Part shown: positions 40,512 to 55,279 of the stretch, one piece after another
How the letters are laid out: each line of letters opens with the position of its first letter
How positions within the stretch are numbered: position 1 is the first letter of the stretch
Position numbers and translations under genes: made by a program
IMG/VR virus record: IMGVR_UViG_3300031992_000020
Length of the DNA: 64,000 bases
Strand: one strand, 5' to 3'
Source: a virus
Taxonomy: Duplodnaviria; Heunggongvirae; Uroviricota; Caudoviricetes
Notes under the pieces: model-generated
What the model saw: only the letters and a program-made list of their open reading frames with translations
What the model was told of the DNA's origin: nothing
Databases searched by the model: none

Positions 40512-43500
40512 ATGGGTTTTTATGGTAATATAAGTGGCTCAACTAAATCAGCCTTTACTTTTGATAGAGTATATGCAAATAGAACATTGATGGATCAGAG
40601 CCTTGATACCGGTGTTGATACAGTATTCTTAGGGCGCTATGTTCTCGTTGAATATGATGACGCTCCGGTATCAATCTGGATCGTTACAAGAGACAATGTG
40701 TCTATTGCATACACAGATTATGAATTAACCACACGTTTGGTGCCGATGGCTAATATTGTATACCGTGATGAAAATAGTGGCCAGACTACACATAGTACAG
40801 TTGATTTTTATGAATATGATATTGCACAGCGCAAATTGGTCAAAGTGCAAGGCAATAGTCCATATGGCGTAAACTATAATATTGACGTTCAGAAGTATGG
40901 TCGTGGTTATGATGGCACTGTTTGGCGCAAGATTTATGATACTACGCTAAACAAATATAGATATGTATTAATGGCAGAGTTAAATGCGGCAGTGCCTACA
41001 TTCCATTACACTGTTGATAATCCATTGGAGATATCAACTGCACCAAGTATTGACTCTTCTGATAGCACGAACTTAAACTATTATATCCATCAACGTGGAT
41101 ATATTATGGACAGATTTAAGACAGATTCTAATGGTGATGTTAGAATTGCTCAACCATCAGAAGCTTGGACTTATAATAGTGATGGCACTGAAAAAACCCA
41201 TACTTACAATATCGGGGAAGAAACAGTTGCTATTAAATTTAATAAAGCTGGTTTTTCACCTGCTAATCACCAAGTTGCTCTTGAAAGCAATAGTAATGAT
41301 GTGATTATGGGCACTAATATTATTGCATGGACACCAAGTAGTTCTGGTAGACATTATAATGTCAGCTTAGCTAACCCACAAGGTGTTGTAGCAAATGATA
41401 TTAGAAATTGGTCTATTGATTTGCCTGTTCTTGGTAATGTTGTACATAAGATGTATGATATTATTTATGGTTATAATGGCACGTCAAGAACGATTACTAA
41501 TTGGCAGAAAACTAATTTAGCTCAGAATGATAAAATGTATCGCATGGATACAATGGTTGGTGCCATCAATAGAGTGCGTGATGCTCTTGGATATAATGTA
41601 ATTACGCAATCATCTGCGCCAACTCAAATTAAAACTGCTGATGATACTAACTTATATTTAATTGGGCCAGATGTACAAACCAATGGCGGCATTGATAGTT
41701 ATTACTATTATGCTAAACAACCTGTATATGTTTCTGATACAATGGGTGATTATTACTATGATGCTGGAACATATCGTGTAGCTAATAAATTAACTGTCCC
41801 AGCCGATTAGTTATTAAAACTAGATCATTATGAATACAAACCTATTCGTTTAACGAATTTAGGAGTAACCATGTATGGTTTAGTTGTTTCTCTTAATCGT
41901 TTAATGGGTGTTGGTGTAACTCCTGGAACACTTCGTGATACAGAAACTATCCCAGGTATGATGGGTAGAATTTCTGATATTTTTGAGCGCATTGACACTG
42001 CGTTATTACCTAATAGAATTATTGCGACTAATAGTAGAGGTATCATTGGTACTATTGGTTCATTAACTGATGAAGTTGGTTTGTTCCCATACGTGCCGGC
42101 AGGCGTTACTGCTGATAGCGCAAATGACAATGGCGATGATTATGTGATGAGCGGTAAAGGTAATTGGAGATTACCTGCTAATTACTTATTAACTGGCTTA
42201 ACTCCAAATGCCACTTACAACGATAAGATTCGTCATGCAGTTGCAGTAACTGATACTTTAAATCAAGCGATTGGTAAGATAGCAAGAGAGTTTGCTGATG
42301 TATATGGAGACCGTGCCGCATCCACTCTTTCTGCTCTTATAAAGAACGCTAATACTCCATAGACTGAGAACTATGAAACTGTTACAGGTATTGATACTTT
42401 TGATAAAGTTGCTACTATCTTTAACAATCGCACAGAATCTGTTGATGAGCGCATTAAAGATCTTCGGATGTTTAGATATTTCGCTATTGCAAATGGTGAA
42501 GCTGATGCGGCAACTGCAAAAGCAAATATTACCGCAGCTATTGGTATTGCAGATTCTGACAATAATGCAGACACTTTCTATTTTAAAACTGGTAATAAAT
42601 GGATTCGTTTGGCCATTGATACAACAACTGATAAGTTAACTATCGCGCACGTGCTTTCCGCAGATACTGCGGGAGAAATTGCATCAAGTGCTACCGGGTG
42701 GGGCAGTGGAACAAATGCTGACAATGCAATTGTAATTCCTAAATTTACAATTGATGAAGCTGGTCATGTTGTTGGTCATGGATCTAATACTTATTATTTG
42801 CCGCATAGCTTTAAGTATGTTTCCGTGGCGGCTCAGTCCTTAGCTGTTGATAACAGTACAGGTAATATAGAAACAATTAAGGCCGATTCCTCAGCCGATA
42901 CTCTTACCTTTGCAACAGCTAACAAATGGTTGACAATTGCCGCATCTGACGTAAGCAATGCTGATAAAGTTACATTAGGGCATATAACAGCCTGGGCTGC
43001 GCATCAGGAAATTGCCCCAACGGCACAAGCTGGCTGGACAAGAGTAAGTGAGAACAAGATTACTCTTCCTACTTTTGATTTTGATGAAGCAGGCCATTTA
43101 GTTGGTCATAATACACAAGATTTCTATTTGCCGCACTCATTTAAAGCATTTAGCGTATTAGCTCAGAATACAGGATCTACGGCAAGCACTGGTAATACAA
43201 ATACAGTTACTGCTGATAACTCTTCTGATACTTTACGTTTTAGCACCGATAATAAATGGGTTACTATACGTGCAATAGAATCTGGTGAAGATGACACTAT
43301 TTATTTCGGCCATGCTTATGATGGCACAGCTGGTAATCAATCTTTTGGTTTACAATATAGTAAGAAAGTTGCTCCAACAGAAACAGAACTTACGAATCAC
43401 GATTATGTAAATCTTGATTCTACTAATCAATTTGAGATTCCTTATTTCACAGTTGATCAGACTGGTCATATTATTAGTGCATCTACGCAGCATGTAATTA

Positions 43501-44930
43501 TTCCAGAAAACTTTGTTTCTATTGCTACCGCGAATGCGGCGAGTGCAGTAAATCCAGTTGAAGGTAATACTGATTCGCATAGTGCAAGTAGTCTTGTTGA
43601 TGCTTTAACATTAAAAGGATCTAATAAATGGATTATCGCTGCGGCCACGACAGATGACAATAAGAAAGTTATTAATTTCAGTCATAAGTTGAATGGCACT
43701 CTTGGCGCATAGACTGACATTGGAAATAATACAACAGTTAATATGACCTTTAATGGCACTTTCATTGTTCCTTATTTATCAATAGATGAAGCAGGTCATG
43801 TCACAGGATTATCTTCTAAGACAATTACTTTACCACAGAATTCAATTTCTGGTAATAAAACTTCTGATAACAATGATAGTAATGTATTAACTGATTTGAC
43901 ATTAGTTCAAACAAGTGGAGCATTCACTCGCACTTATGCTAATGTTGGGTCTTTAAAGTTGACAGGCTTTGTAGCAAATACCGCTGGAAGTGCGGCGCTC
44001 GCTGTTTCTGATACAATTAATGGCGCTTTCGCAAAACTTGAAGCTAGAATTGCTTATGAAGAAAGCAATCGCGCCTCAGCAATCAGCACAGAAGTAACTA
44101 ATAGAAATACTGCAATTTCTAACGCTATCGGCACTTTAACTGTTGATAGTAACCAAACAGCAAATGTTCAGAATGCTATTGCAAAAGCATTAGCTACTGC
44201 AAAAGAATATACAGATACTGAACTTGGCAAGTTGAATAGCAATTATAGCACTTCTCCTTACTTGGCTGCAACCCGTGCCGCGATTAAAGCTGTTGATGAT
44301 AAATTTGGTACTTTGGTTGTTGGATCTGGTGAAACTGCTACTGTTGCTAATGCTATTGCAAAGGCCGCAAGCGATGCATCACAAGCATTAAGTAATAAGA
44401 TTGGTACATTGTCTGTTGGACAAGGACAAACTTCTACTGTTGAAAATGCTATTGCATTAGTGAATAATAAATTTGCTAATTATAAAACTACTGCTGAATT
44501 AACAACTATTCTTAATGATTATGTAAAGCAATCTGCTTTAACTACTACTTTAAATAGTTATGTAACTCAAAGCGGCTTAACAACAACATTGGCTGACTAT
44601 GTACAATCTTCTGTATTAGATGATTACGTAGCTACTGATGATGTTGAAAGTGCAATTAATGATGTGATTCGTGCTAATTATGATTTAAGTCTTAAAGCAC
44701 CTGTGATTGTAAACTTTACCGCAGATGCTACAAATGGTCTTGAAGTTGAAATTGAACCAATTGCTGGTACAATTACTTATCAATGGATGAAAGATGACCA
44801 GATCTTTGATGCTGGTACTAGCAATACACACGCAGGATCACTTGCCGCAGGTGACTATAAAGTTGCAATCAAGAGAGAATATAATGGTTTAGAAATAACT
44901 ACAACAAGCGAAGTCGTTACTATTGCTTAA
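40512..44930 (+). CDS. Long tail fibre (~1,472 aa; code 15)
   Basis: ORFs 40512, 41871, 42468 and 43743 share a frame and are joined by three TAGs. It has repeated PxFxxDxxGH and DTLxFxTxNKW units, a coiled-coil segment and an Ig-like end. Ends in TAA. Confidence 0.75.
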
Positions 44931-47229: not shown

Positions 47230-47258
47230 TAGGGAGCGTTCATACGCTCCCTTATTTT
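47230..47258 (+). terminator. Rho-independent terminator
   Basis: agggagcgt-tcat-acgctccct followed by tatttt. Confidence 0.65.
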
Positions 47259-47281: not shown

Positions 47282-50200
47282 ATGGCTGACGATAAAGTAA
47301 TGGTTTATGAAGGCCAAGAACGTACATTTACGCAAAACCAATCTCCACTTCAAATCTTTAAGGGCCCAGAAGCAAAAATTGAAGAGCTCGGTATCCAAGA
47401 TGGATGCTTATACTTCGCTACTGATAGTAAAAAAATCTATCTTGATTGTGATTTTACCGATTCTCTTGGTACGACTTTGAAAGATCGTATTGCTTTTGGC
47501 GGATCTACTGGCATTTGGTATGCCACAAAAGTATTCACAGAAGCCGAAATTGATATTGCTCAATTTACTTTTACCCAAGATGACTTTGACAATATCAGCG
47601 AAGTTCCTATGGTTGATGACTTGATCCTTAATGAAGGCGATGGTAGCTTCTACCGCATCACCGCAGTAACTGATTATAGCACATAGTTCCAAAAAGAATT
47701 TGATATTGATGCTGATCGTCTTACTGTATCTGGCTCCGGTGGCGGAGGCGGCGGTGGTGGAGGTGGCAGTACCACAGGCGCAGTCGTTAAGATTGTAGGT
47801 GGTCGTACTAAGTATTGGGCAAGAGAAGCAACTTCAATGCCTATTACATTTACGATGACTCTTGAAGATGCCGAAGAAACAATTGGTTATCGTTTATATA
47901 TCGGCAAAGGTAGTACAGTTGTTCGTGCGCAAGTGTCAGGCTTGCCGCAATCAAATGAAACTCAACCAACAACCATTAACATTGCAGACTTTAAAGATTT
48001 CATTGATCCTAACATGCCAACTGAAATTAGTATTATGCCTTTTGGTGATGATGGTACAGAAGTCACAAGATCTTTGAAATGGTCTGTTACATTGTTTAAT
48101 ATCTCTATTGCTCCATATACAGATGTTATTGGCGCGAGAGTTGGCGAGTTTGATAATTACACTGTTATTCCTACCTTTGGTACTGAATTACAGAATGTAA
48201 TTTTAAATTGGAAAATTACAGATAACCGTGGTAATGAAATTGCTTTCGGGCAACGTGAATTGACTGCGGTAAATACTGGACGTCAAGTTAGCTTGAATGT
48301 TGGTGAACAAACACCAGGTACATATCATATTATTACTTGGTTGCAAGCTGATATTCCTGGTTCAAGCGGGCAACGTATCATCAGTTCTGAGTTAGATCAG
48401 ATTTGCTCTTGGGTATCTTCCGCGCAAGATGTTCCTGTTTTGTCTGTAACATTCCCACCTGTAACTTAGCAATTCCAACAGTATGATGTAATTACAGTTC
48501 CTTATACTGTTTATTATAGAGAAGCAACAATTAGTGTTACAGAATATGTAATTTATACTAATGCTTCTGGTGAAACTACAACCACAGAGATTGACTCTAA
48601 GGTTATTAGCACAGGCGTTGCAGCTGACCCATTAACATACAGCTTCTAGAACACTGGTACTTATCGTTTCCGTATTATGGTTGGTGATAACGCAACTAGC
48701 GATACTTCTAGTGAGTATGTCATTGAAGGTGTGAGCGGTGACGTTCCTACTTTGCAACGCGATGGTTTAGTTCTTTATATGAATCCTACCAAAACCAATA
48801 ACTCTTCCACAAGAGATGTTTGGGAAAATGAAGGTAGCGCTACTTATGTAAAGAATGGTGAAACAATTCCTGTTGATGTAACTTTTGAAAATATAAACTG
48901 GGTATCAAATGGTTGGGGCCGTGATGATGAAGGCGTTACTATGTTCCATTTGGACAATGGTGCTAAATTAACAGTTAATGGATATAGCCCATTCGCCGGT
49001 GATGGCGCGCAAAAGACTGGCCGCACTATTGAATTAGATATTAAAATTTCTAACATTAAAGATCGTTCTAAAAGATTATTTACTTGTGTTTCTGAAAATA
49101 GCGATAGCCATACAATCAATACAGGTATTGTAGCCAATGGTGACTTTATTGCTTTGAATGGTTCCGCGCACTCTCCTACCCATACTTGGGAATCTGGCGA
49201 TGGCACAATCGACGATGTTTCTGGCAAGAGAGTAAAACAGTTGGCAGATAATGAAACTGGTTTGGTTGCTTGGTATTGCGAAGGTGAACGTGTTCATGTA
49301 ACATTCGTTATCACTCTTGAAGGAACCGGTGTTATTGGCACTATGCCAAAAGGCTTTGTTTACACTTATATTAACGGTGTTATTTCTGGTCTTGTGCCGC
49401 AAAGCTCTGGTGAAACATTTAAAGATGGCGCTTCTATTTCTCTTGCATCAAGATTTATTTTTGATTCAACATATGCTGATATTGATATTTATGGTATCCG
49501 CGTATATGAGACTGCTCTTGATGATCAGTCTGTATTAGTCAACTATCTTGCCACATATGGCAATACTCTTGATGCTATTGATCTTTATAGAGATAATCAA
49601 TTACTTGACCCAACCACAGGCCGTGTGTCTTTGGCGAAAGTTAAAGCATATGGTAAGATTCCTTATTTAGTGCTTCGTGGTGGACGTCAATGCGATAAGA
49701 ACTTAACTAAATTTGAAGGTTATGGTTCTGAAAAAGAAGTAGATTTGCCAAGCGGTCAAAACGCTGATTCAGATGGTCATGATAATGGTAAAAAAGACTT
49801 CCGTTTCATGGAAGGCTATCTCGTAAATCCTCTTACCGGTTATAACATTGGTAGTGAAGATAACCGTGTCCTTTTAACAGTATATGATCAAGGTACTTCT
49901 TCTTTGCAATATCCTGTTAAAAATTTACGTATTAAGTTCTGGAATAAAAATACTAGCGTAAATAATTACACTCCTAAATATGGCGATGATGGTAAAGCTA
50001 AAAAGAGTAAAGTTAAAGTTTATGCTAACCAACCTGCTGAGGCTTCTGTATATACGCTTAAAGCTGACTATATGGATAGTTCAAGTGCGCATAACACCGG
50101 TACTGGTAATGCATTACCTGAGTTATATGGCACGCATAAGACTTTGGCACAAAGAATTAATGATAAGACATTAACCGCGATCAATGGTTATCCAATCGTT

Positions 50201-53200
50201 ATTTTCTGGAAAAAATATCGCCATACTACAAATATTCAAACCGAAGATATTCAAACTATTAGATCTGACGTAGATATTAAAAGCAATGGTATTCGTCCTA
50301 TTGAAGAAGCGGCAGACAAAGATAGTGATTATGAATACATTGGTAGATATAACTTCGACTTAGACAAGTCAGAAGCAAAACTTTATGGTTTCTATACTGA
50401 TTATGACAATCATTATGGCGTGCGCTTAGACACTAACAATGTTTATGATGATATCGCTAATGCGTCTGATGTATTAACTGGATTACGTTCTATTCCTATT
50501 CAGCATGAAAGTTTTAGAGCTTTGATTGATGATGATGATGATTTAACTTATGATCCAGCCCAAGTATATTACATTAAACCATATAAGACAGCTGCAACTT
50601 GGACTCAACCAACTATTGATAATAACGGCGCTCAAATTGCTCAAAAGGCATTGAACACTGGACTTAAAGATAGATTAGCAATTGGTCCACTATACGTTTT
50701 AGAAGATGAAACAAAAGGCGCTAATAGTATTGAGTGCTGGGAGTTTTCAACTAATAACGTTAGTGAGCATCCATTACAGTTGCAATTCTTCCAAGACCCT
50801 TGGAGCGAAGAAGATGATCCAACTTATGGAAACTGGACTGAGGCATTTGAATCTCGTTATCCAGAATACGTAAGTCAAGAGTCAACTGATAAGCGTTCAT
50901 TTGCTCGTTTGATTAACTGGGTTGCCAGCACAAATGCAGTAAGAGTTGGGCATGAGCCAACTGCTGAACAGCTTACCGCATGGGCTGCTGATCCTTCTCT
51001 TGTTCCAGATAATTTAAAACCTTTAATTCCAGATCCAATGGAACGTAGATTGCCAAAGATCCAACTTGGCGAGTTCCAGGGTGTAACTGGTATATTATAT
51101 CAAGATACTCCTATTACGGATTCTTGGAATGATATTCCATACGCAGACGCAGCGCGCGGTGTTCGTAATACAGCTCAGTATACTTCTGAGACAACATTCT
51201 ATTATGACTCTTTTGAATATCGTTTACATAAATTCAAGAGCGAATTTGATCAATATTTAAATAGAGATTTTACTCTTATTTATTATATTATTACTGAGTT
51301 CTTGATCGGTAAAGATAGTCGTGCAAAGAATATGATGATGGCTTGCTTCGATGCAAACCCAGAAATGAATGTTGGACATTGGTTCCCAATTTTCTACGAT
51401 GTTGATACTATTCTTGGTCTTGATAACGTAGGTAAATTAAGATATCGTTATGACGAAGAAGATTATGACTATGGTATTTTCAATACCAATGCTGACTATT
51501 TTGACTCTGATGGTTAGACTATTGCAGCAAATTACAGCGTATTGTGGTCTAATGTTCGTCGCACAATGTATAATGAAATTAAGACTATGTATCGTGAGAT
51601 GCGTAGTGCAAGATTTAACTATCAAAATTTGATTGATATTTATAACACTCGTTTAGCCGATGCTTGGAATGCAACATTGATCAACCAAGATGTATGGTAT
51701 AAATTTGTTAGATTCTTAACTGGTTATATTCCAGACAAGGGATTTGATGATTATCCTATTTCTACTCCTAACCCTTCAATTATGTATGCGGCGACTGATG
51801 GAACAACCGCAAACGCTTGGTTGCCTGCGGTCCAAGGTACTCGTTCACTTCATCGTGAGCAAATTATTCGTCGTAGACTTGCATATTTGGATGGTAAATA
51901 TGGTTTCACTGATGGCGGTGTTACAATTGCTTTCCGCGCGCAGGCTGGTCAAGAAGGCGCTGATGAAGGTTATACTCCATTAGGTATTTGGGATTTGACA
52001 GTCCATGACTCTTGCTACTTATCAATTAATGCTTCTGCTGAAAGAACAGTTGGTCCATTCAGATTTACCGAAGGATCAAGAAAGATCATTAACAGTGGTA
52101 CATTCAGTGGTACAGAGCAGGAAATGAACTTCCACTTCTTTAACCAAGTATCTGATTCACATGACTTATCTGGTAAACGTATTGGTACATTGACATTCAA
52201 TGAAAAGCCAGGTTATCCACATAGATTAACCAATTTGGACTTAACACATAGTCGTGTTGGTTATGAACAAACATTCCGTGGACAAAATGTACAGCACTTG
52301 ACACAGTTAAACTTGTCAAGCTTACCTTACTTGCAGACACTTAATGTATCTTATTTATCAAGTTTGGTATCTGTGTCATTGGCTGATAATCCTTATATTA
52401 CTGAGGTTTATGCAAAAGGTATTGGTTCTTCTACTTCTGCAATTACTTTCCCTGATGGCGGTATCTTACGCAGGGTTGAATTACCAAAGAGTTTGACAAA
52501 ACTTGACTTGAAAGGCCATAATTTATTATCTACTCTTGTTGTAGAAGATAATGATTATAGCAAGATCAAAACACTTTATATAGAAGATTGTAAATTAATC
52601 AATACAAAGAACTTGTTTGATAATATTTCTCGCTATGGTAGTGTTGAATAGCTTGAAATCAAGTTGCCAGATATCAATTGGACTATTGATTATAGTGAAG
52701 TTATTCTTGATGGGGACAATATGGTATAGAGTATTCCAATCTTAGACAAGTTGATTTTGGCGAGCGGTCCATCTAGTTCTTCTAAGAATGAAGATAATGA
52801 ATTGATTGAAGGTCGTACTTACGTTGCTGGTACAATCACGATTTTGAATAATGAATCTGGACATGAATTCGGTCTTGATGAAAACGAAATCTATGAAAAG
52901 TATGGTAAGTATTACCCAGGTGTTAAAATTGTATTTACGCATAATAGTTTAAGCACTATCGCATATACATTCAATGCTTGGACTGCTTCTGGCGGTTTAA
53001 TCCAATAGAAGAAGTTAAAATCCAGTGTAGTTGAAAATATTACGTTTGAAGAATTGTTTAATGACACCTTGCCCGCACAGACGAGAGATTCTTCTCCGAA
53101 GTACGATTATACTTTCATTGGTTGGAATTTAACTGGTAACCTCTTGATTGAAGAAGATGACGATGATTATCATTATACATTAACTGATGCAAGAGACATT

Positions 53201-54982
53201 GCAGAAAGTAAAGTAGTTGCTCGTTACAATTATGATCAAAACGCTTATGTGCCTGGAACAGTTATTGAGTTTGGGTCTAACTTGTTTGATGAAACTACTC
53301 GTGAAATGAATATTTATCCTACCTTCTTGGGTACGGTTAGATCATTTGAAGTAACTTTCTACAATAGCGATGATATTGATACTGCTGAGGTATATGAAGT
53401 ATAGACAGTGCGGTATGGCGCTGCTGCAATCGCACCAGCAGTTGCCCCAGTTAAAGTTGTATTCAATGAGAATGATGTAAACGACACTCGTATTTACACT
53501 TTGGCTGGATACAGCAGATCTTTCGCAAATATCACAACTGACAATATTAAGATTTATCCAAGATTTAATACAACTTATACAGATGCAAAAACTTATATTG
53601 CTCCTCCGGAAGCATTTGAAATCTTAGATGCGAACTATTCCGAAGCAATTAATCCTTCTGCTGCACGTTTCAATACTGAGGGCAATATTAATGGTGTTGC
53701 GGTTAAAATTTCTTATGGCTATAACAATGAATTTATTACAATTCCAAAAGCTCTTATGGTTAATGGATATAATAGACCAATTGTTAGCTTGTAGAATGAA
53801 TCTACTAACTTACGCAGAGTATATTTCGAAGAAGGCAATAATATTCGTATTATTGAAAATGGGGCATTCTCTTATTCTGAGAAATTAGAATTTGTAGACC
53901 TTGCCGCATGTACAAATCTTTATAGAATAGGTTCTGCTGAAAATGCTACATGGATTACTGGTGGACCTTTTGCTAATTGCCCGAACTTGAAGGTAACTGC
54001 ATTGCCTGATAGTCTTGCAATTATTGGTCAGCATTGTTTCCGTAATACAGGCACTGGGTCAAAAATAATGATTAGTAAATTACCAGAACACTTACAATTA
54101 TTAGGCAGTTATGCATTTGCTGGATGTACTGAAATTGGTTTATTACAAATGTCCGATTTCTTGCATGATATTCCTGGATTCTGCTTTAATGGATGTTCTA
54201 ATTTGCAGTTACCAAATACTTATTATTTCCAAGGTGTTTACACTATTGGTACAAGAGCATTTGAGAATTGTTCAAGTTTAAATACATTCAATGCAAAACA
54301 GGAAGATGGAACTTACTTATTGTCTGGTACATTACAGAGTATTGGTACTTAGGCATTTAAGGGTTGTAGTAATCTTGGCCTTGAAGCATTACCAGTTTGG
54401 ACTTTGAAAGAGTTAGGAACTGAATGTTTCAGAGATTGCGGATATATCAAGTTAAGTACAGAAATGGCGCAGCCTAGCTTGGCCAATGTCGATACTGATA
54501 AGGTAAAGTGGGGCAAGAACGTATTTGCTGGATGTACCTTGTATAGACGTCTTATAGATCAGTCTGGTGCATATGTTGGCATTGAATCTTTGATGCCTCG
54601 TTTAGTATTGAGATATGGCTCTGGTAAATATGACATTGACCGCGAAGTATTCGGTGAAAACATTACTGATGGTTTACAATTCGCATACTACGATTTTGGT
54701 CAGCCAATAGATACTCATGATGGACAATATGTATACAACGAAAATGCACAAGCTGTCGAAGGTGGCTTGAACCTCTTCGTTGCTGCTTCAAACTGGGGCT
54801 CATTTGGTTCTCAGTTCACGCAGAATCGTAGAGATATCGCTTGGTTGAGCGATCCGAACAATCCTTGGTGCAATGTGCTTGATAAGTTGTTCGAGACTGG
54901 TCAGTTGAGAATTTGGTATACTAAGAATGGTAATGAATACATTTATCATTCTAACTTGAACATTTATATGACCAACAATTAA
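47282..54982 (+). CDS. Giant multidomain tail protein (~2,566 aa; code 15): Mtd_N-like, poly-Gly, Ig-like, LamG-like lectin, CotH-like kinase, LRR, InlB-B-like, BspA-type LRR
   Basis: RBS GGAGG. All same-frame ORF pieces from 47282 to 54404 are joined only by TAGs. Motifs include QGTSSLQYPVKN, YTLKADYMDSSSAHN, INGYPIVIF, YIGRYNFDLDK, DSRAKN, FYDVDTILGLDN, and repeated (I/L)GxxAFxxC. Ends in TAA. Confidence 0.8.
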
Positions 54983-54993
54983 GGAGGTAACAT

Positions 54994-55203
54994 ATGTTTA
55001 TTCGTAAAGAATATAGACACCCTGATGGCTATGTGATTTATACACCTCCTAAATTTGAAGCGGATGCGATGACCTACTTGTGGGTCTATCCGCATCCGGG
55101 TCATTATTTAAGAAATAAAAATACCGGTATGTGCGCGACTACGTTGCATATTAGGGTGTATGAATTGGAGCAATGGGAGGAAATACCGGACAATTCCCAT
55201 TAA
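54994..55203 (+). CDS. Small protein (69 aa), possible fibre-associated chaperone or cap
   Basis: RBS AGGAGG. Intact ORF ending in ...LEQWEEIPDNSH-TAA directly after the giant adhesin gene. Confidence 0.6.
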   Translation: MFIRKEYRHPDGYVIYTPPKFEADAMTYLWVYPHPGHYLRNKNTGMCATTLHIRVYELEQWEEIPDNSH

Positions 55204-55240: not shown

Positions 55241-55279
55241 GGATAGGGCTTCGCGCAAGCCCTATCCCTTCTAATTTTT
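55241..55279 (+). terminator. Hairpin, probable terminator
   Basis: ggatagggctt-cgcgc-aagccctatcc followed by cttctaattttt. Confidence 0.6.

What the first reader, a model, noticed from the sequence alone, without database searches (positions are those of the whole stretch)
47282..54982. CotH-like protein kinase embedded in a ~2,566-aa lectin/LRR tail protein
Seen: a LamG-like region (~48750-49530), a kinase-like region (~49650-51900) with QGTSS...YPVKN, LKADYMDSS..HN, DSRAKN (51314) and FYDVD (51395), then LRRs, InlB-B-like segments and BspA-type LRRs. Established: CotH is an atypical kinase that phosphorylates spore-coat proteins, and BspA-type LRRs are adhesins. Inference: a virion-displayed kinase/adhesin with apparently intact catalytic residues that could modify or bind host surface, spore coat or mucosal targets. 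Similar fusions are annotated in gut phages, but I know of no established function.
Basis: partly seen in the sequence, partly recalled or inferred. Interest (0 to 1): 0.7.

Follow-up and report, generated by a model that had tools for sequence, protein, structure and literature searches.

The report
Giant phage fibre with CotH domain
This is one 2,566-residue tail-fibre-type gene of a large gut/rumen phage that reads TAG as an amino acid; its most conserved part has the fold and intact catalytic motifs of the CotH spore-coat kinase, but it belongs to a very large class of phage proteins that has been noticed before and never tested.

Summary
The frame 47282-54982 is open for 2,566 codons once ten in-frame TAGs are read as sense. 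It has no TAA or TGA before the terminal TAA, and the genome carries a tRNA with anticodon CTA. Residues ~860-1545 fold as a CotH kinase: B. cereus CotH 5JDA scores Z 17.7, rmsd 3.9 A over 324 of 359 residues, and is Foldseek's only significant PDB hit.

Pfam CotH misses the window's own sequence but hits 28 of 72 relatives. DSRAKN (D1345, N1350) and YDVD (D1373) align with the catalytic D228 and D251 of B. subtilis CotH, and 225 of 226 full-length relatives keep the motif. BspA LRR_5 is confirmed. The LamG and Listeria-Bacteroides repeat calls are only indirectly supported.

The gene lies in the tail-fibre cluster and shares an N-terminal anchor motif with four neighbouring genes. Relatives include the Hankyphage DGR target and Bacillus phage G gp353, but this copy has no DGR. 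Three papers, UniProt annotations and 76 earlier notes of this scan already describe the class, and no function has been tested. Kinase activity, substrate and virion presence remain inferences. Spore coat is an unlikely general target, because many relatives sit in non-sporulating Bacteroidota.

The parts
47282..54982 (+). One gene of 2,566 codons plus TAA; 10 in-frame TAG codons read as sense (window nt 47684, 48467, 48647, 51515, 52649, 52727, 53006, 53402, 53792, 54350)
   Evidence: Homologs of 2,300-2,600 aa are colinear across the TAGs. The closest relative, P0002, also needs TAG=Q.
47282..47686 (+). N-terminal anchor module (aa 1-135): G..(A/E)K...DG.LYFATD..KIY.D ... VDDLILN..DG.FYR
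   Evidence: Conserved in large-phage homologs and replaced by unrelated N-termini in the S. copri, Zongyangia and Chryseobacterium copies. The motif is shared with ORFs 45029, 46027, 57812 and 59874. It has no PDB or Pfam match.
47729..47767 (+). Poly-Gly linker (aa 150-162)
   Evidence: Read directly from the sequence; conserved as G-rich in homologs.
47774..48691 (+). Beta-rich, Ser/Thr-rich region of unknown fold (aa ~165-470)
   Evidence: No Pfam hit. It holds the highest S/T content in the protein at aa 360-480. Not folded here.
48719..49651 (+). LamG / ConA-like lectin-type region (aa ~480-790)
   Evidence: Atlas features place it with viral Laminin_G_3 clusters at 0.96, 28 of 30 hits. 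Conserved W514, G544 and W545. No Pfam hit.
49859..51916 (+). CotH-like atypical kinase-fold domain (aa ~860-1545), about twice the size of Bacillus CotH because of insertions
   Evidence: AF2 model with pLDDT 79 and pTM 0.85. 5jda_A gives Z 17.7, rmsd 3.9 A over 324 of 359 residues. Foldseek finds 5jda/5jd9 with prob 1.0. 28 of 72 homologs hit PF08757. It is the most conserved part of the protein.
51314..51331 (+). Catalytic-loop motif DSRAKN (D1345 ... N1350), equivalent to B. cereus D224...N229 and B. subtilis D228
   Evidence: D228 is catalytic according to PMC7821199.
51395..51406 (+). Metal-binding motif YDVD (D1373, D1375), equivalent to WD247YD in B. cereus and D251 in B. subtilis
   Evidence: D251 according to PMC7821199.
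52139..52681 (+). Leucine-rich-repeat-like region (aa ~1620-1800)
   Evidence: Weak Pfam LRR_4, LRR_Zer-1 and LRR_8 hits (E 0.1-4). LRR_8 and LRR_EndoS are found in homologs.
52979..53731 (+). Listeria-Bacteroides-repeat-like segments (aa ~1900-2150; Y.F.GW motif at 1943-1948)
   Evidence: PF09479 is found in 2 of 20 homologs. F1945, G1947 and W1948 are nearly invariant. Not detected in this copy.
53804..54481 (+). BspA-type LRR_5 region (aa ~2175-2400)
   Evidence: PF13306 at E 1.6e-24 to 1.6e-27; present in 19 of 20 homologs.
54482..54979 (+). C-terminal ~165 aa of unknown fold; the distal tip, and not a detectable DGR variable region
   Evidence: No usable atlas hit. No RT in the genome and no TR-like repeat of the gene.
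54994..55203 (+). 69-aa ORF directly downstream; a possible partner or chaperone (positional inference only)
   Evidence: It is 31% identical (E 1e-9) to the 72-aa ORF after P0002. Analogous small ORFs follow the S. copri and Chryseobacterium copies, but homology between the two types is not shown.
47231..47252 (+). Terminator-like hairpin just upstream of the gene
   Evidence: consensus scan only.
55241..55267 (+). Terminator-like hairpin (11-bp stem) after the 69-aa ORF
   Evidence: consensus scan only.

Best explanation
The gene encodes a single giant tail-fibre-type protein of a roughly 150-170 kb TAG-recoded phage. It is made late in infection, when the phage's tRNA(CTA) suppresses TAG. 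An element-specific N-terminal module (aa 1-135) followed by a poly-Gly hinge probably docks it to the tail tip or baseplate, alongside four neighbouring fibre-like proteins that carry the same motif. The distal part is a string of binding modules: a LamG-like lectin, LRRs, Listeria-Bacteroides-like repeats, BspA LRR_5 and an unknown tip. These most likely attach the virion to envelope glycans or proteins of the host. In the middle sits the best-conserved part, a CotH-type atypical kinase domain with a complete catalytic core (D1345-x4-N1350 and Y-D1373-x-D1375), which I take to be a working phosphotransferase. This core is conserved across phages of both Bacteroidota and Bacillota while the flanking binding modules vary, and ATP is plentiful only inside the cell. 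My preferred mechanism is therefore that the domain acts in the producer cell during assembly, phosphorylating the fibre itself or neighbouring virion proteins, much as CotH phosphorylates CotB and CotG during spore-coat assembly. Shown here: the ORF, the recoding, the fold, motif conservation, family membership and the tail-cluster position. Inferred: virion location, adhesin role, catalytic activity, and the place and target of action.
For: ORF and recoding. Fold: AF2 model with pLDDT 79 and pTM 0.85; VIA gives Z 17.7 to 5jda_A against 8.5 for the next hit, and every other row is a kinase fold; Foldseek's only significant PDB hits are 5jda and 5jd9. Transitive sequence homology: 28 of 72 relatives hit PF08757, and some exceed the gathering score. 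Residue mapping: a canonical CotH profile aligns to 5jd9 at E 6e-44 and shows D224..N229 and WD247; hhalign places DSRAKN and YDVD on those motifs; B. subtilis D228 and D251 are catalytic (PMC7821199). Selection: about 45 of 64 invariant columns of the full-length alignment lie in aa 870-1532, and 225 of 226 full-length relatives keep D-x4-N...[FYW]DxD. Tail context: portal, structural proteins, a 4,518-aa tape-measure-sized ORF and a tail-protein PHROG lie upstream; the N-terminal motif is shared with four neighbours. The S. copri homolog is the last gene of a prophage tail module after Baseplate_J, and the Zongyangia homolog sits just before holin and amidase. Binding modules.
Against: The window's own sequence does not reach Pfam CotH even at E 10, and the profile-profile probability is low (9%, E 0.0035), so the residue mapping rests on motif register plus the fold. 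No data show that the protein is in virions or that it binds ATP. CotH-fold proteins can work without demonstrated kinase activity (my recollection: Mucorales CotH invasins). Canonical gut CotH proteins carry signal or lipoprotein leaders, so an extracytoplasmic role for the fold is common, and that weakens the 'acts in the cytoplasm' step. Chryseobacterium carries the core as a free-standing chromosomal three-gene cassette with no phage genes nearby, so the function need not be specific to tails. No candidate substrate was identified.
Confidence: 0.55

Rival explanations
1. The CotH-fold core is a non-catalytic scaffold or binding module. It would be a pseudokinase, or a domain that binds a nucleotide or metal only as a structural cofactor, and the protein works purely as a multivalent adhesin.
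For: The domain is far diverged from enzymatically proven CotH: 14% identity to 5jda and no Pfam hit for this copy. It is twice the size of CotH, with large low-confidence insertions. It sits between lectin and LRR binding modules. A virion-borne kinase has no obvious ATP source.
Against: The catalytic Asp, the Asn at +5 and both Asp of the DxD motif are invariant at about 23-35% overall identity and are kept in 225 of 226 relatives. Pseudokinases usually lose at least one of these residues. The core is the most conserved part of the protein.
Confidence: 0.22
2. The kinase acts from the virion on the target cell's envelope or on other extracellular material (surface proteins, glycans, mucus), using extracellular ATP or ATP released at lysis.
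For: The position in the fibre next to carbohydrate- and protein-binding modules. Canonical gut CotH proteins have secretion or lipoprotein signals, so the fold often works outside the cytoplasm.
Against: The core is conserved across phages of Gram-negative Bacteroidota and Gram-positive Bacillota, whereas the flanks vary. That pattern does not fit a host-specific surface substrate. Spore coat cannot be the general target in non-sporulating hosts. Nothing here indicates an ATP supply outside the cell.
Confidence: 0.12
3. The protein is not a virion component. It would be a phage-encoded cellular or released factor, for example a surface adhesin or effector of the infected cell, that merely sits in the late region.
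For: Chryseobacterium genomes carry a 246-aa, 1,607-aa and 66-aa cassette with the same core away from any phage genes, in two different neighbourhoods. There are no proteomic data for this phage.
Against: The gene sits inside a run of fibre-like genes that share its N-terminal motif. Its homologs occupy the classical fibre slot after the baseplate or before the lysis genes in two prophages. The N-terminus is swapped between elements, as fibre anchors are. It has no signal peptide.
Confidence: 0.08
4. The TAGs are true stops, and the region is a set of separate small genes or a decayed gene.
For: Table 11 gives 10 separate pieces.
Against: All ten stops are TAG, and there are 0 TGA or TAA in 2,566 codons against 86 and 313 in the other frames. 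Full-length homologs are colinear. The genome encodes a tRNA with anticodon CTA. TAG read-through also fuses the other late genes of the window. The closest relative shows the same recoding.
Confidence: 0.02

Closest known systems
Giant CotH / carbohydrate-binding / LRR phage tail proteins, including the Hankyphage (Bacteroides phage p00, BK010646.1) DGR target protein; Roux et al. PC_00012 (bioRxiv 10.1101/2020.04.01.020958); Bacteroides DGR 'domain group 3' (bioRxiv 10.1101/2024.11.15.621889); Benler et al. 2021 (PMC8008677)
   Same: More than 2,000 aa, with the same order of lectin-like, CotH-like and LRR modules. The catalytic C-lobe is homologous (tblastn E 1e-10 to p00). The tail-fibre position is shared. 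Function is untested in all of them.
   Different: This copy has no DGR: no reverse transcriptase and no template repeat in the 86%-complete record, and no recognisable C-type-lectin variable tip. It is encoded with 10 TAG sense codons in a roughly 150-kb phage rather than in a 43-kb temperate phage.
Bacillus CotH spore-coat Ser/Thr kinase (B. subtilis CotH; B. cereus CotH, PDB 5JD9/5JDA; Pfam PF08757)
   Same: The atypical kinase fold (Z 17.7, 324 of 359 residues). The catalytic D-x4-N loop, the (W/Y)DxD metal site, and the N-lobe motifs RGxSS..K.SY and L..(F/Y)MD.S..(R/H)N.
   Different: Only 14% identity, and the window's copy is below the Pfam detection limit. The domain is twice as long, with insertions. 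It is embedded in a 2,566-aa phage protein, it has no spore context, and it carries its own extra invariant residues (K927, D929, N1024, D1028, K1029, R1347, K1349).
Bacillus phage G gp353 and UniProt viral entries annotated 'CotH kinase protein', 'Spore coat protein H kinase fold' or 'Internalin-like protein' (crAss-like cr52_1, cr124_1)
   Same: The best viral structural matches (Foldseek E 5e-17 to 1e-7), and tblastn E 3e-10 to gp353.
   Different: These are shorter proteins or fragments (about 700-1,300 aa) from different phage lineages. None has been characterised.
Chryseobacterium chromosomal CotH + LRR_5 giants (1,606-1,607 aa)
   Same: The same CotH-like core and BspA LRR_5, and a small ORF directly downstream.
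   Different: A compact core without the insertions, a different N-terminus, and no phage genes nearby. One copy lies next to CTnDOT-type tra genes and another among housekeeping and polymorphic-toxin genes.

Membership tests
CotH kinase family (Pfam PF08757; PDB 5JD9/5JDA) | The protein's own sequence matches the PF08757 profile above the gathering score | tested here: not met
   No hit at E<=10 for aa 780-1560 or 850-1560, and none in a six-frame search of the genome. I therefore file it as CotH-like at the superfamily or fold level, not as a Pfam-defined member.
CotH kinase family (Pfam PF08757; PDB 5JD9/5JDA) | Transitive homology: close relatives match PF08757 | tested here: met
   28 of 72 aligned relatives hit CotH, best E 9.8e-10. 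P0013 scores 29.3 bits and the S. copri copy 32.7 bits, against a cut-off of 23.8.
CotH kinase family (Pfam PF08757; PDB 5JD9/5JDA) | CotH atypical protein-kinase fold | tested here: met
   5jda_A: Z 17.7, rmsd 3.9 A, 324 of 359 residues aligned, next hit Z 8.5. Foldseek prob 1.00, E 2e-4, target TM 0.51. The model has pLDDT 79.
CotH kinase family (Pfam PF08757; PDB 5JD9/5JDA) | Catalytic Asp (B. subtilis D228) with Asn at +5 | tested here: met
   D1345 and N1350 in DSRAKN align to the CotH D..N loop and are invariant. The hhalign probability is low (9%), so the register rests on the motif plus the fold.
CotH kinase family (Pfam PF08757; PDB 5JD9/5JDA) | Metal-binding Asp (B. subtilis D251) in WDxD | tested here: met
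   YD1373VD1375 aligns to WD247YD of 5jd9 and is invariant. The motif pair is present in 225 of 226 relatives.
CotH kinase family (Pfam PF08757; PDB 5JD9/5JDA) | ATP-dependent Ser/Thr phosphorylation of protein substrates | not testable with these tools
   Needs biochemistry.
Giant CotH/lectin/LRR phage tail proteins (Hankyphage DGR-target class) | A protein of more than 2,000 aa combining carbohydrate-binding, CotH-like and LRR modules, homologous to the Hankyphage protein | tested here: met
   Architecture. tblastn to BK010646.1: E 1e-10. 593 to 1,098 relatives, mostly 2,000-2,700 aa with LRR_5.
Giant CotH/lectin/LRR phage tail proteins (Hankyphage DGR-target class) | A DGR-diversified C-terminal C-type-lectin variable region with cognate RT and template repeat | tested here: not met
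   No RVT_1 in the 149-kb record, no second copy of any part of the gene, and the C-terminus is unrecognised. The record is 86% complete, so an RT in the missing part cannot be excluded. This copy is a non-DGR member of the wider family.
Giant CotH/lectin/LRR phage tail proteins (Hankyphage DGR-target class) | Encoded in the tail or tail-fibre module | tested here: met
   Gene order in the window, the shared N-terminal motif, and homologs after Baseplate_J or before holin.
BspA-type leucine-rich repeat (PF13306 LRR_5) | Profile match above the gathering score | tested here: met
   86.7-96.4 bits against a cut-off of 27.7, aa 2229-2339 and flanks.
LamG / ConA-like lectin (PF13385 Laminin_G_3) | Profile or fold match | tested here: inconclusive
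   No Pfam hit. Language-model features place it with viral Laminin_G_3 clusters at 0.96.
Listeria-Bacteroides repeat (PF09479 Flg_new) | Profile match | tested here: inconclusive
   Not detected in this copy. Found in 2 of 20 homologs, and the Y.F.GW motif is conserved.
TAG-recoded phages (code-15-like) | In-frame TAG only, in late genes, with a phage-encoded suppressor tRNA(CTA) | tested here: met
   Which amino acid TAG encodes is not resolved by this gene, because the TAG columns are all variable.

The most novel reading that the evidence does not exclude
The conserved CotH core is an active kinase that phosphorylates the phage's own fibre or virion proteins in the producer cell. That would be a 'virion-coat phosphorylation' system analogous to spore-coat patterning, shared by more than a thousand clusters of gut and rumen phages and also used outside virions (the Chryseobacterium cassette).
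Probability: 0.22. Interest if true: 0.7.

Novelty: new member of a known kind. Interest (0 to 1): 0.35.

Why it matters
The family is very large: 1,098 clusters at 50% identity, spanning phages of both major gut phyla and including the widespread Hankyphage. Its best-conserved part is an apparently competent enzyme, which is unusual because enzyme domains in fibres are normally depolymerases. Nobody has tested what it does. If the kinase is active, phages would be using protein phosphorylation in building or using their tails. For this particular window the finding adds a non-DGR, TAG-recoded member and little that is new in kind.

Tried and rejected
(1) Direct sequence detection of CotH in this copy failed. 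Pfam on the whole protein and on sub-regions, PDB phmmer, a family-profile search of PDB and a six-frame genome search all gave nothing.

(2) The single-sequence AF2 model was useless (pLDDT 31).

(3) Nguyen et al. 2016 (PNAS, the CotH structure paper) is not held. The catalytic residues were taken from PMC7821199 and mapped through a canonical CotH profile instead.

(4) DGR target: rejected for this copy.

(5) Kinase-phosphoesterase gene pair, a lead from earlier notes: not seen here. Metallophos matches lie only at G000 26.6 and 28.5 kb, about 42 kb from the gene. There are no metallophosphoesterase motifs in the tail-cluster ORFs and no GNH[DE] in any open + strand frame of the window. A very divergent phosphatase fold could still have been missed.

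(6) megablast of the gene against GenBank phages: no match.

(7) N-terminal anchor against PDB: nothing. PHROGs for the neighbours: unknown function only.

(8) One family for all the small ORFs downstream of the giant genes: not supported, since they form two unlinked clusters.

(9) Identity of the TAG amino acid from this gene: uninformative. The tRNA(CTA) is not close to any other tRNA of the phage.

I did not pursue it.

(11) The fold search 'atlas' library did not answer.

(12) Conjugative-element linkage of the Chryseobacterium copy: seen in one genome but not in a second, so it is not a general feature.


Full report
THE ORF. Under table 11 the stretch 47282-54982 falls into ten pieces that all share one frame. 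Translation shows ten internal stops, every one of them TAG, and a terminal TAA. The frame contains no TGA and no other TAA in 2,566 codons, whereas the other two frames of the same DNA contain 86 and 313 TAA+TGA stops. Reading TAG as sense also fuses the rest of the window into long late genes, including ORFs of 4,518 and 1,916 aa.

The window is part of a 149,432-bp IMG/VR record that CheckV rates 86% complete, and that record encodes a tRNA with anticodon CTA. The closest relative, on a 169.5-kb contig, is syntenic and also needs TAG=Q. So there is one gene of 2,566 codons (P0001). Under the standard code the kinase-like domain would stop 37 residues after its metal-binding motif. None of the TAGs falls on a conserved column.

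THE KINASE-LIKE REGION. Direct sequence searches fail for this copy. Pfam finds only BspA LRR_5, PDB sequences give nothing, and a six-frame CotH search of the genome gives nothing.

An exhaustive HMMER search with aa 790-1560 found 1,098 cluster representatives, mostly proteins of 2,000-2,700 aa with the match in the middle. I aligned 72 of them (A1). Scanned one by one, 28 of the 72 hit Pfam CotH, best E 9.8e-10, and some exceed the curated threshold.

With this alignment AlphaFold gave a confident model (pLDDT 79, pTM 0.85); the single-sequence model had been useless. Foldseek's only significant PDB hits are the two B. cereus CotH structures (prob 1.00). The independent aligner gives 5jda_A Z 17.7 with rmsd 3.9 A over 324 of its 359 residues. 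The next hit is at Z 8.5, and every other row is a protein- or lipid-kinase fold.

CATALYTIC RESIDUES. B. subtilis CotH is inactivated by D228Q and by D251A (PMC7821199). I collected canonical CotH genes from Bacillota genomes. Their profile matches 5jd9 at E 6e-44 and shows B. cereus NFD224GFVHN229 and PWD247YD. These two Asp are 23 residues apart, the same spacing as D228 and D251.

Profile-profile alignment of the phage family with canonical CotH is weak overall (probability 9%, E 0.0035). It nevertheless puts DSRAKN (D1345..N1350) on the D..N loop and YD1373VD on WDxD. The N-lobe motifs also correspond: QGTSS..YPVKNLRIKF to RGNSS..KKSYKI.F, and LKADYMDSSSAHN to LNSEFMDPSLIRN.

These residues are invariant in the 72-sequence and the 20-sequence full-length alignments, at about 23-35% overall identity. 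The motif pair is present in 225 of 226 full-length relatives. About 45 of the 64 invariant columns of the whole protein lie in aa 870-1532, so the kinase-like core is the most constrained part of the protein. This argues for retained catalysis, or at least retained nucleotide and metal binding, but it is not a measurement.

THE OTHER MODULES.
- BspA LRR_5 is solid and is present in 19 of 20 homologs.
- The middle LRRs are weak in this copy.
- The Listeria-Bacteroides repeat is seen in 2 of 20 homologs, and a conserved Y.F.GW motif marks the equivalent place here.
- The LamG call is supported only by language-model features (Laminin_G_3 viral clusters, 0.96).
- The last ~165 residues are unassigned.

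CONTEXT AND MOUNTING. Upstream lie the portal, structural proteins, a tape-measure-sized ORF and a tail-protein PHROG. The gene sits in a run of large ORFs of unknown function. Its first ~135 residues carry a motif, G..AK...DG.LY..TD...Y.D, that is also present at the N-termini of ORFs 45029, 46027, 57812 and 59874.

This N-terminal module, followed by a poly-Gly linker, is conserved in large-phage homologs. It is replaced by unrelated N-termini in the S. copri, Zongyangia and Chryseobacterium copies, which is how fibre anchors behave.

In Segatella copri the homolog is the last gene of a prophage tail module, after a tape measure and Baseplate_J, and two contigs show different host flanks right after it. 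In Zongyangia it directly precedes holin, amidase and the recombinases. Virion location is therefore a reasonable inference, but it is not shown.

A 69-aa ORF follows the gene, and terminator-like hairpins bracket the pair.

WHAT IS KNOWN ALREADY. Benler et al. state that CotH kinase domains occur in phage genomes fused to hypervariable C-type lectins and are unstudied (PMC8008677). Roux et al. describe a viral DGR-target cluster, PC_00012, whose example is a 2,284-aa protein with a CotH-like domain. Macadangdang et al. describe Bacteroides DGR 'group 3' proteins of more than 2,000 aa with CotH active-site motifs (5JDA), carbohydrate-binding motifs and LRRs.

The catalytic lobe of the window's protein matches the Hankyphage protein (E 1e-10) and Bacillus phage G gp353 (E 3e-10), both annotated as hypothetical. 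The best viral structure matches include UniProt entries already named 'CotH kinase protein' and 'Spore coat protein H kinase fold'. This scan has 76 earlier notes on the same class in at least 70 genomes.

The present copy differs in two ways. It has no DGR: no reverse transcriptase and no template repeat. It is also written with TAG sense codons.

MECHANISM. What is shown is a fibre-type multi-domain protein with an intact CotH-like catalytic core. Three observations guide the rest.
- The core is conserved across phages of Bacteroidota and Bacillota while the binding modules around it vary. Its substrate is therefore probably common to all of them and not a host-specific receptor.
- ATP is abundant only in the cytoplasm (established knowledge).
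- The one characterised CotH phosphorylates structural proteins during assembly of a proteinaceous coat (PMC7821199).

I therefore favour action in the producer cell on the fibre itself or on neighbouring virion proteins. This step is inference.

Against it, canonical gut CotH proteins carry secretion signals. Chryseobacterium also keeps the core in a chromosomal three-gene cassette, in two different neighbourhoods, without phage genes. Rival readings are a scaffold or pseudokinase, action on the target-cell surface, and a non-virion factor. Spore coat as the general target is unlikely, because many carriers infect non-sporulating hosts.

VERDICT. This is a new member of a known, unstudied kind, of moderate interest, mainly as one more well-resolved example with mapped catalytic residues.

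Noticed in passing
G000:C1:3515-3606 (outside the window): The phage's suppressor tRNA (anticodon CTA) is 92 nt long with a long variable arm. That is a type II tRNA shape, as in Ser, Leu and Tyr tRNAs, and is unusual for a Gln tRNA. It is not close to any of the phage's 18 other tRNAs (52-64% identity). The usual assumption TAG=Gln may deserve a direct check in this lineage.
   Followed up: partly
window 54994-55203 (+); L106:17645-17863; L103:14832-15032; L104:15220-15498: A small ORF (66-92 aa) directly follows the giant CotH gene in the window, in its closest phage relative, in the S. copri prophage and in Chryseobacterium. The window and P0002 pair are homologous (31%, E 1e-9), and so are the Chryseobacterium and S. 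copri pair (43%, E 2e-13; 61 clusters, consensus IIADDGK.F.RI.DG..YG.EIYLGYSY.IGG.KL..PH.D.PEDF.E). The two types share a PG..(L/F)..., (D/Q)(W/F)EE(I/V) pattern, but phmmer does not link them.
   Followed up: partly
L103 and L110 (Chryseobacterium luquanense; Chryseobacterium sp. KCF3-3): Many Chryseobacterium species carry a conserved three-gene cassette (246-aa ORF, 1,606-1,607-aa CotH+LRR_5 protein, 66-aa ORF) with no phage genes nearby. In one genome it lies next to CTnDOT-type traJ/M/O/Q genes, and in another among housekeeping and polymorphic-toxin genes (Tox-MPTase2, DUF6443).
   Followed up: partly
window 40512-44930 (+): The 1,472-aa ORF upstream has at least four ~100-aa repeats ending in F(T/D)(I/F)DEAGH(V/L).G(H/L), then an Ala/Thr-rich coiled-coil-like tail. 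It has no Pfam or PHROG match and is presumably another fibre.
   Followed up: no
L081, L084-L102 (canonical CotH genes of gut Bacillota genomes): Nearly all canonical CotH proteins sampled (450-700 aa) begin with signal-peptide or lipoprotein-like leaders, so most non-Bacillus CotH proteins are probably extracytoplasmic. This raises the same ATP-supply question as for the phage proteins.
   Followed up: no
L107:15210-15833 (Zongyangia hominis prophage): A separate 207-aa LRR_5-only gene lies between the giant CotH/LRR_5 gene and the holin, as if a spare BspA-type tip were encoded next to the fibre.
   Followed up: no
L104/L105 (Segatella copri): The same prophage, with a 1,756-aa CotH protein as its last gene, is followed by glycoside hydrolases in one contig and by a SusC/SusD locus in another. 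The element has therefore inserted at different sites, and the protein was seen in 66 collection blocks.
   Followed up: no
window 47231-47252 and 55241-55267: Strong terminator-like hairpins flank the giant gene plus the 69-aa ORF, suggesting a separate transcription unit inside the fibre cluster. This comes from a consensus scan only.
   Followed up: no
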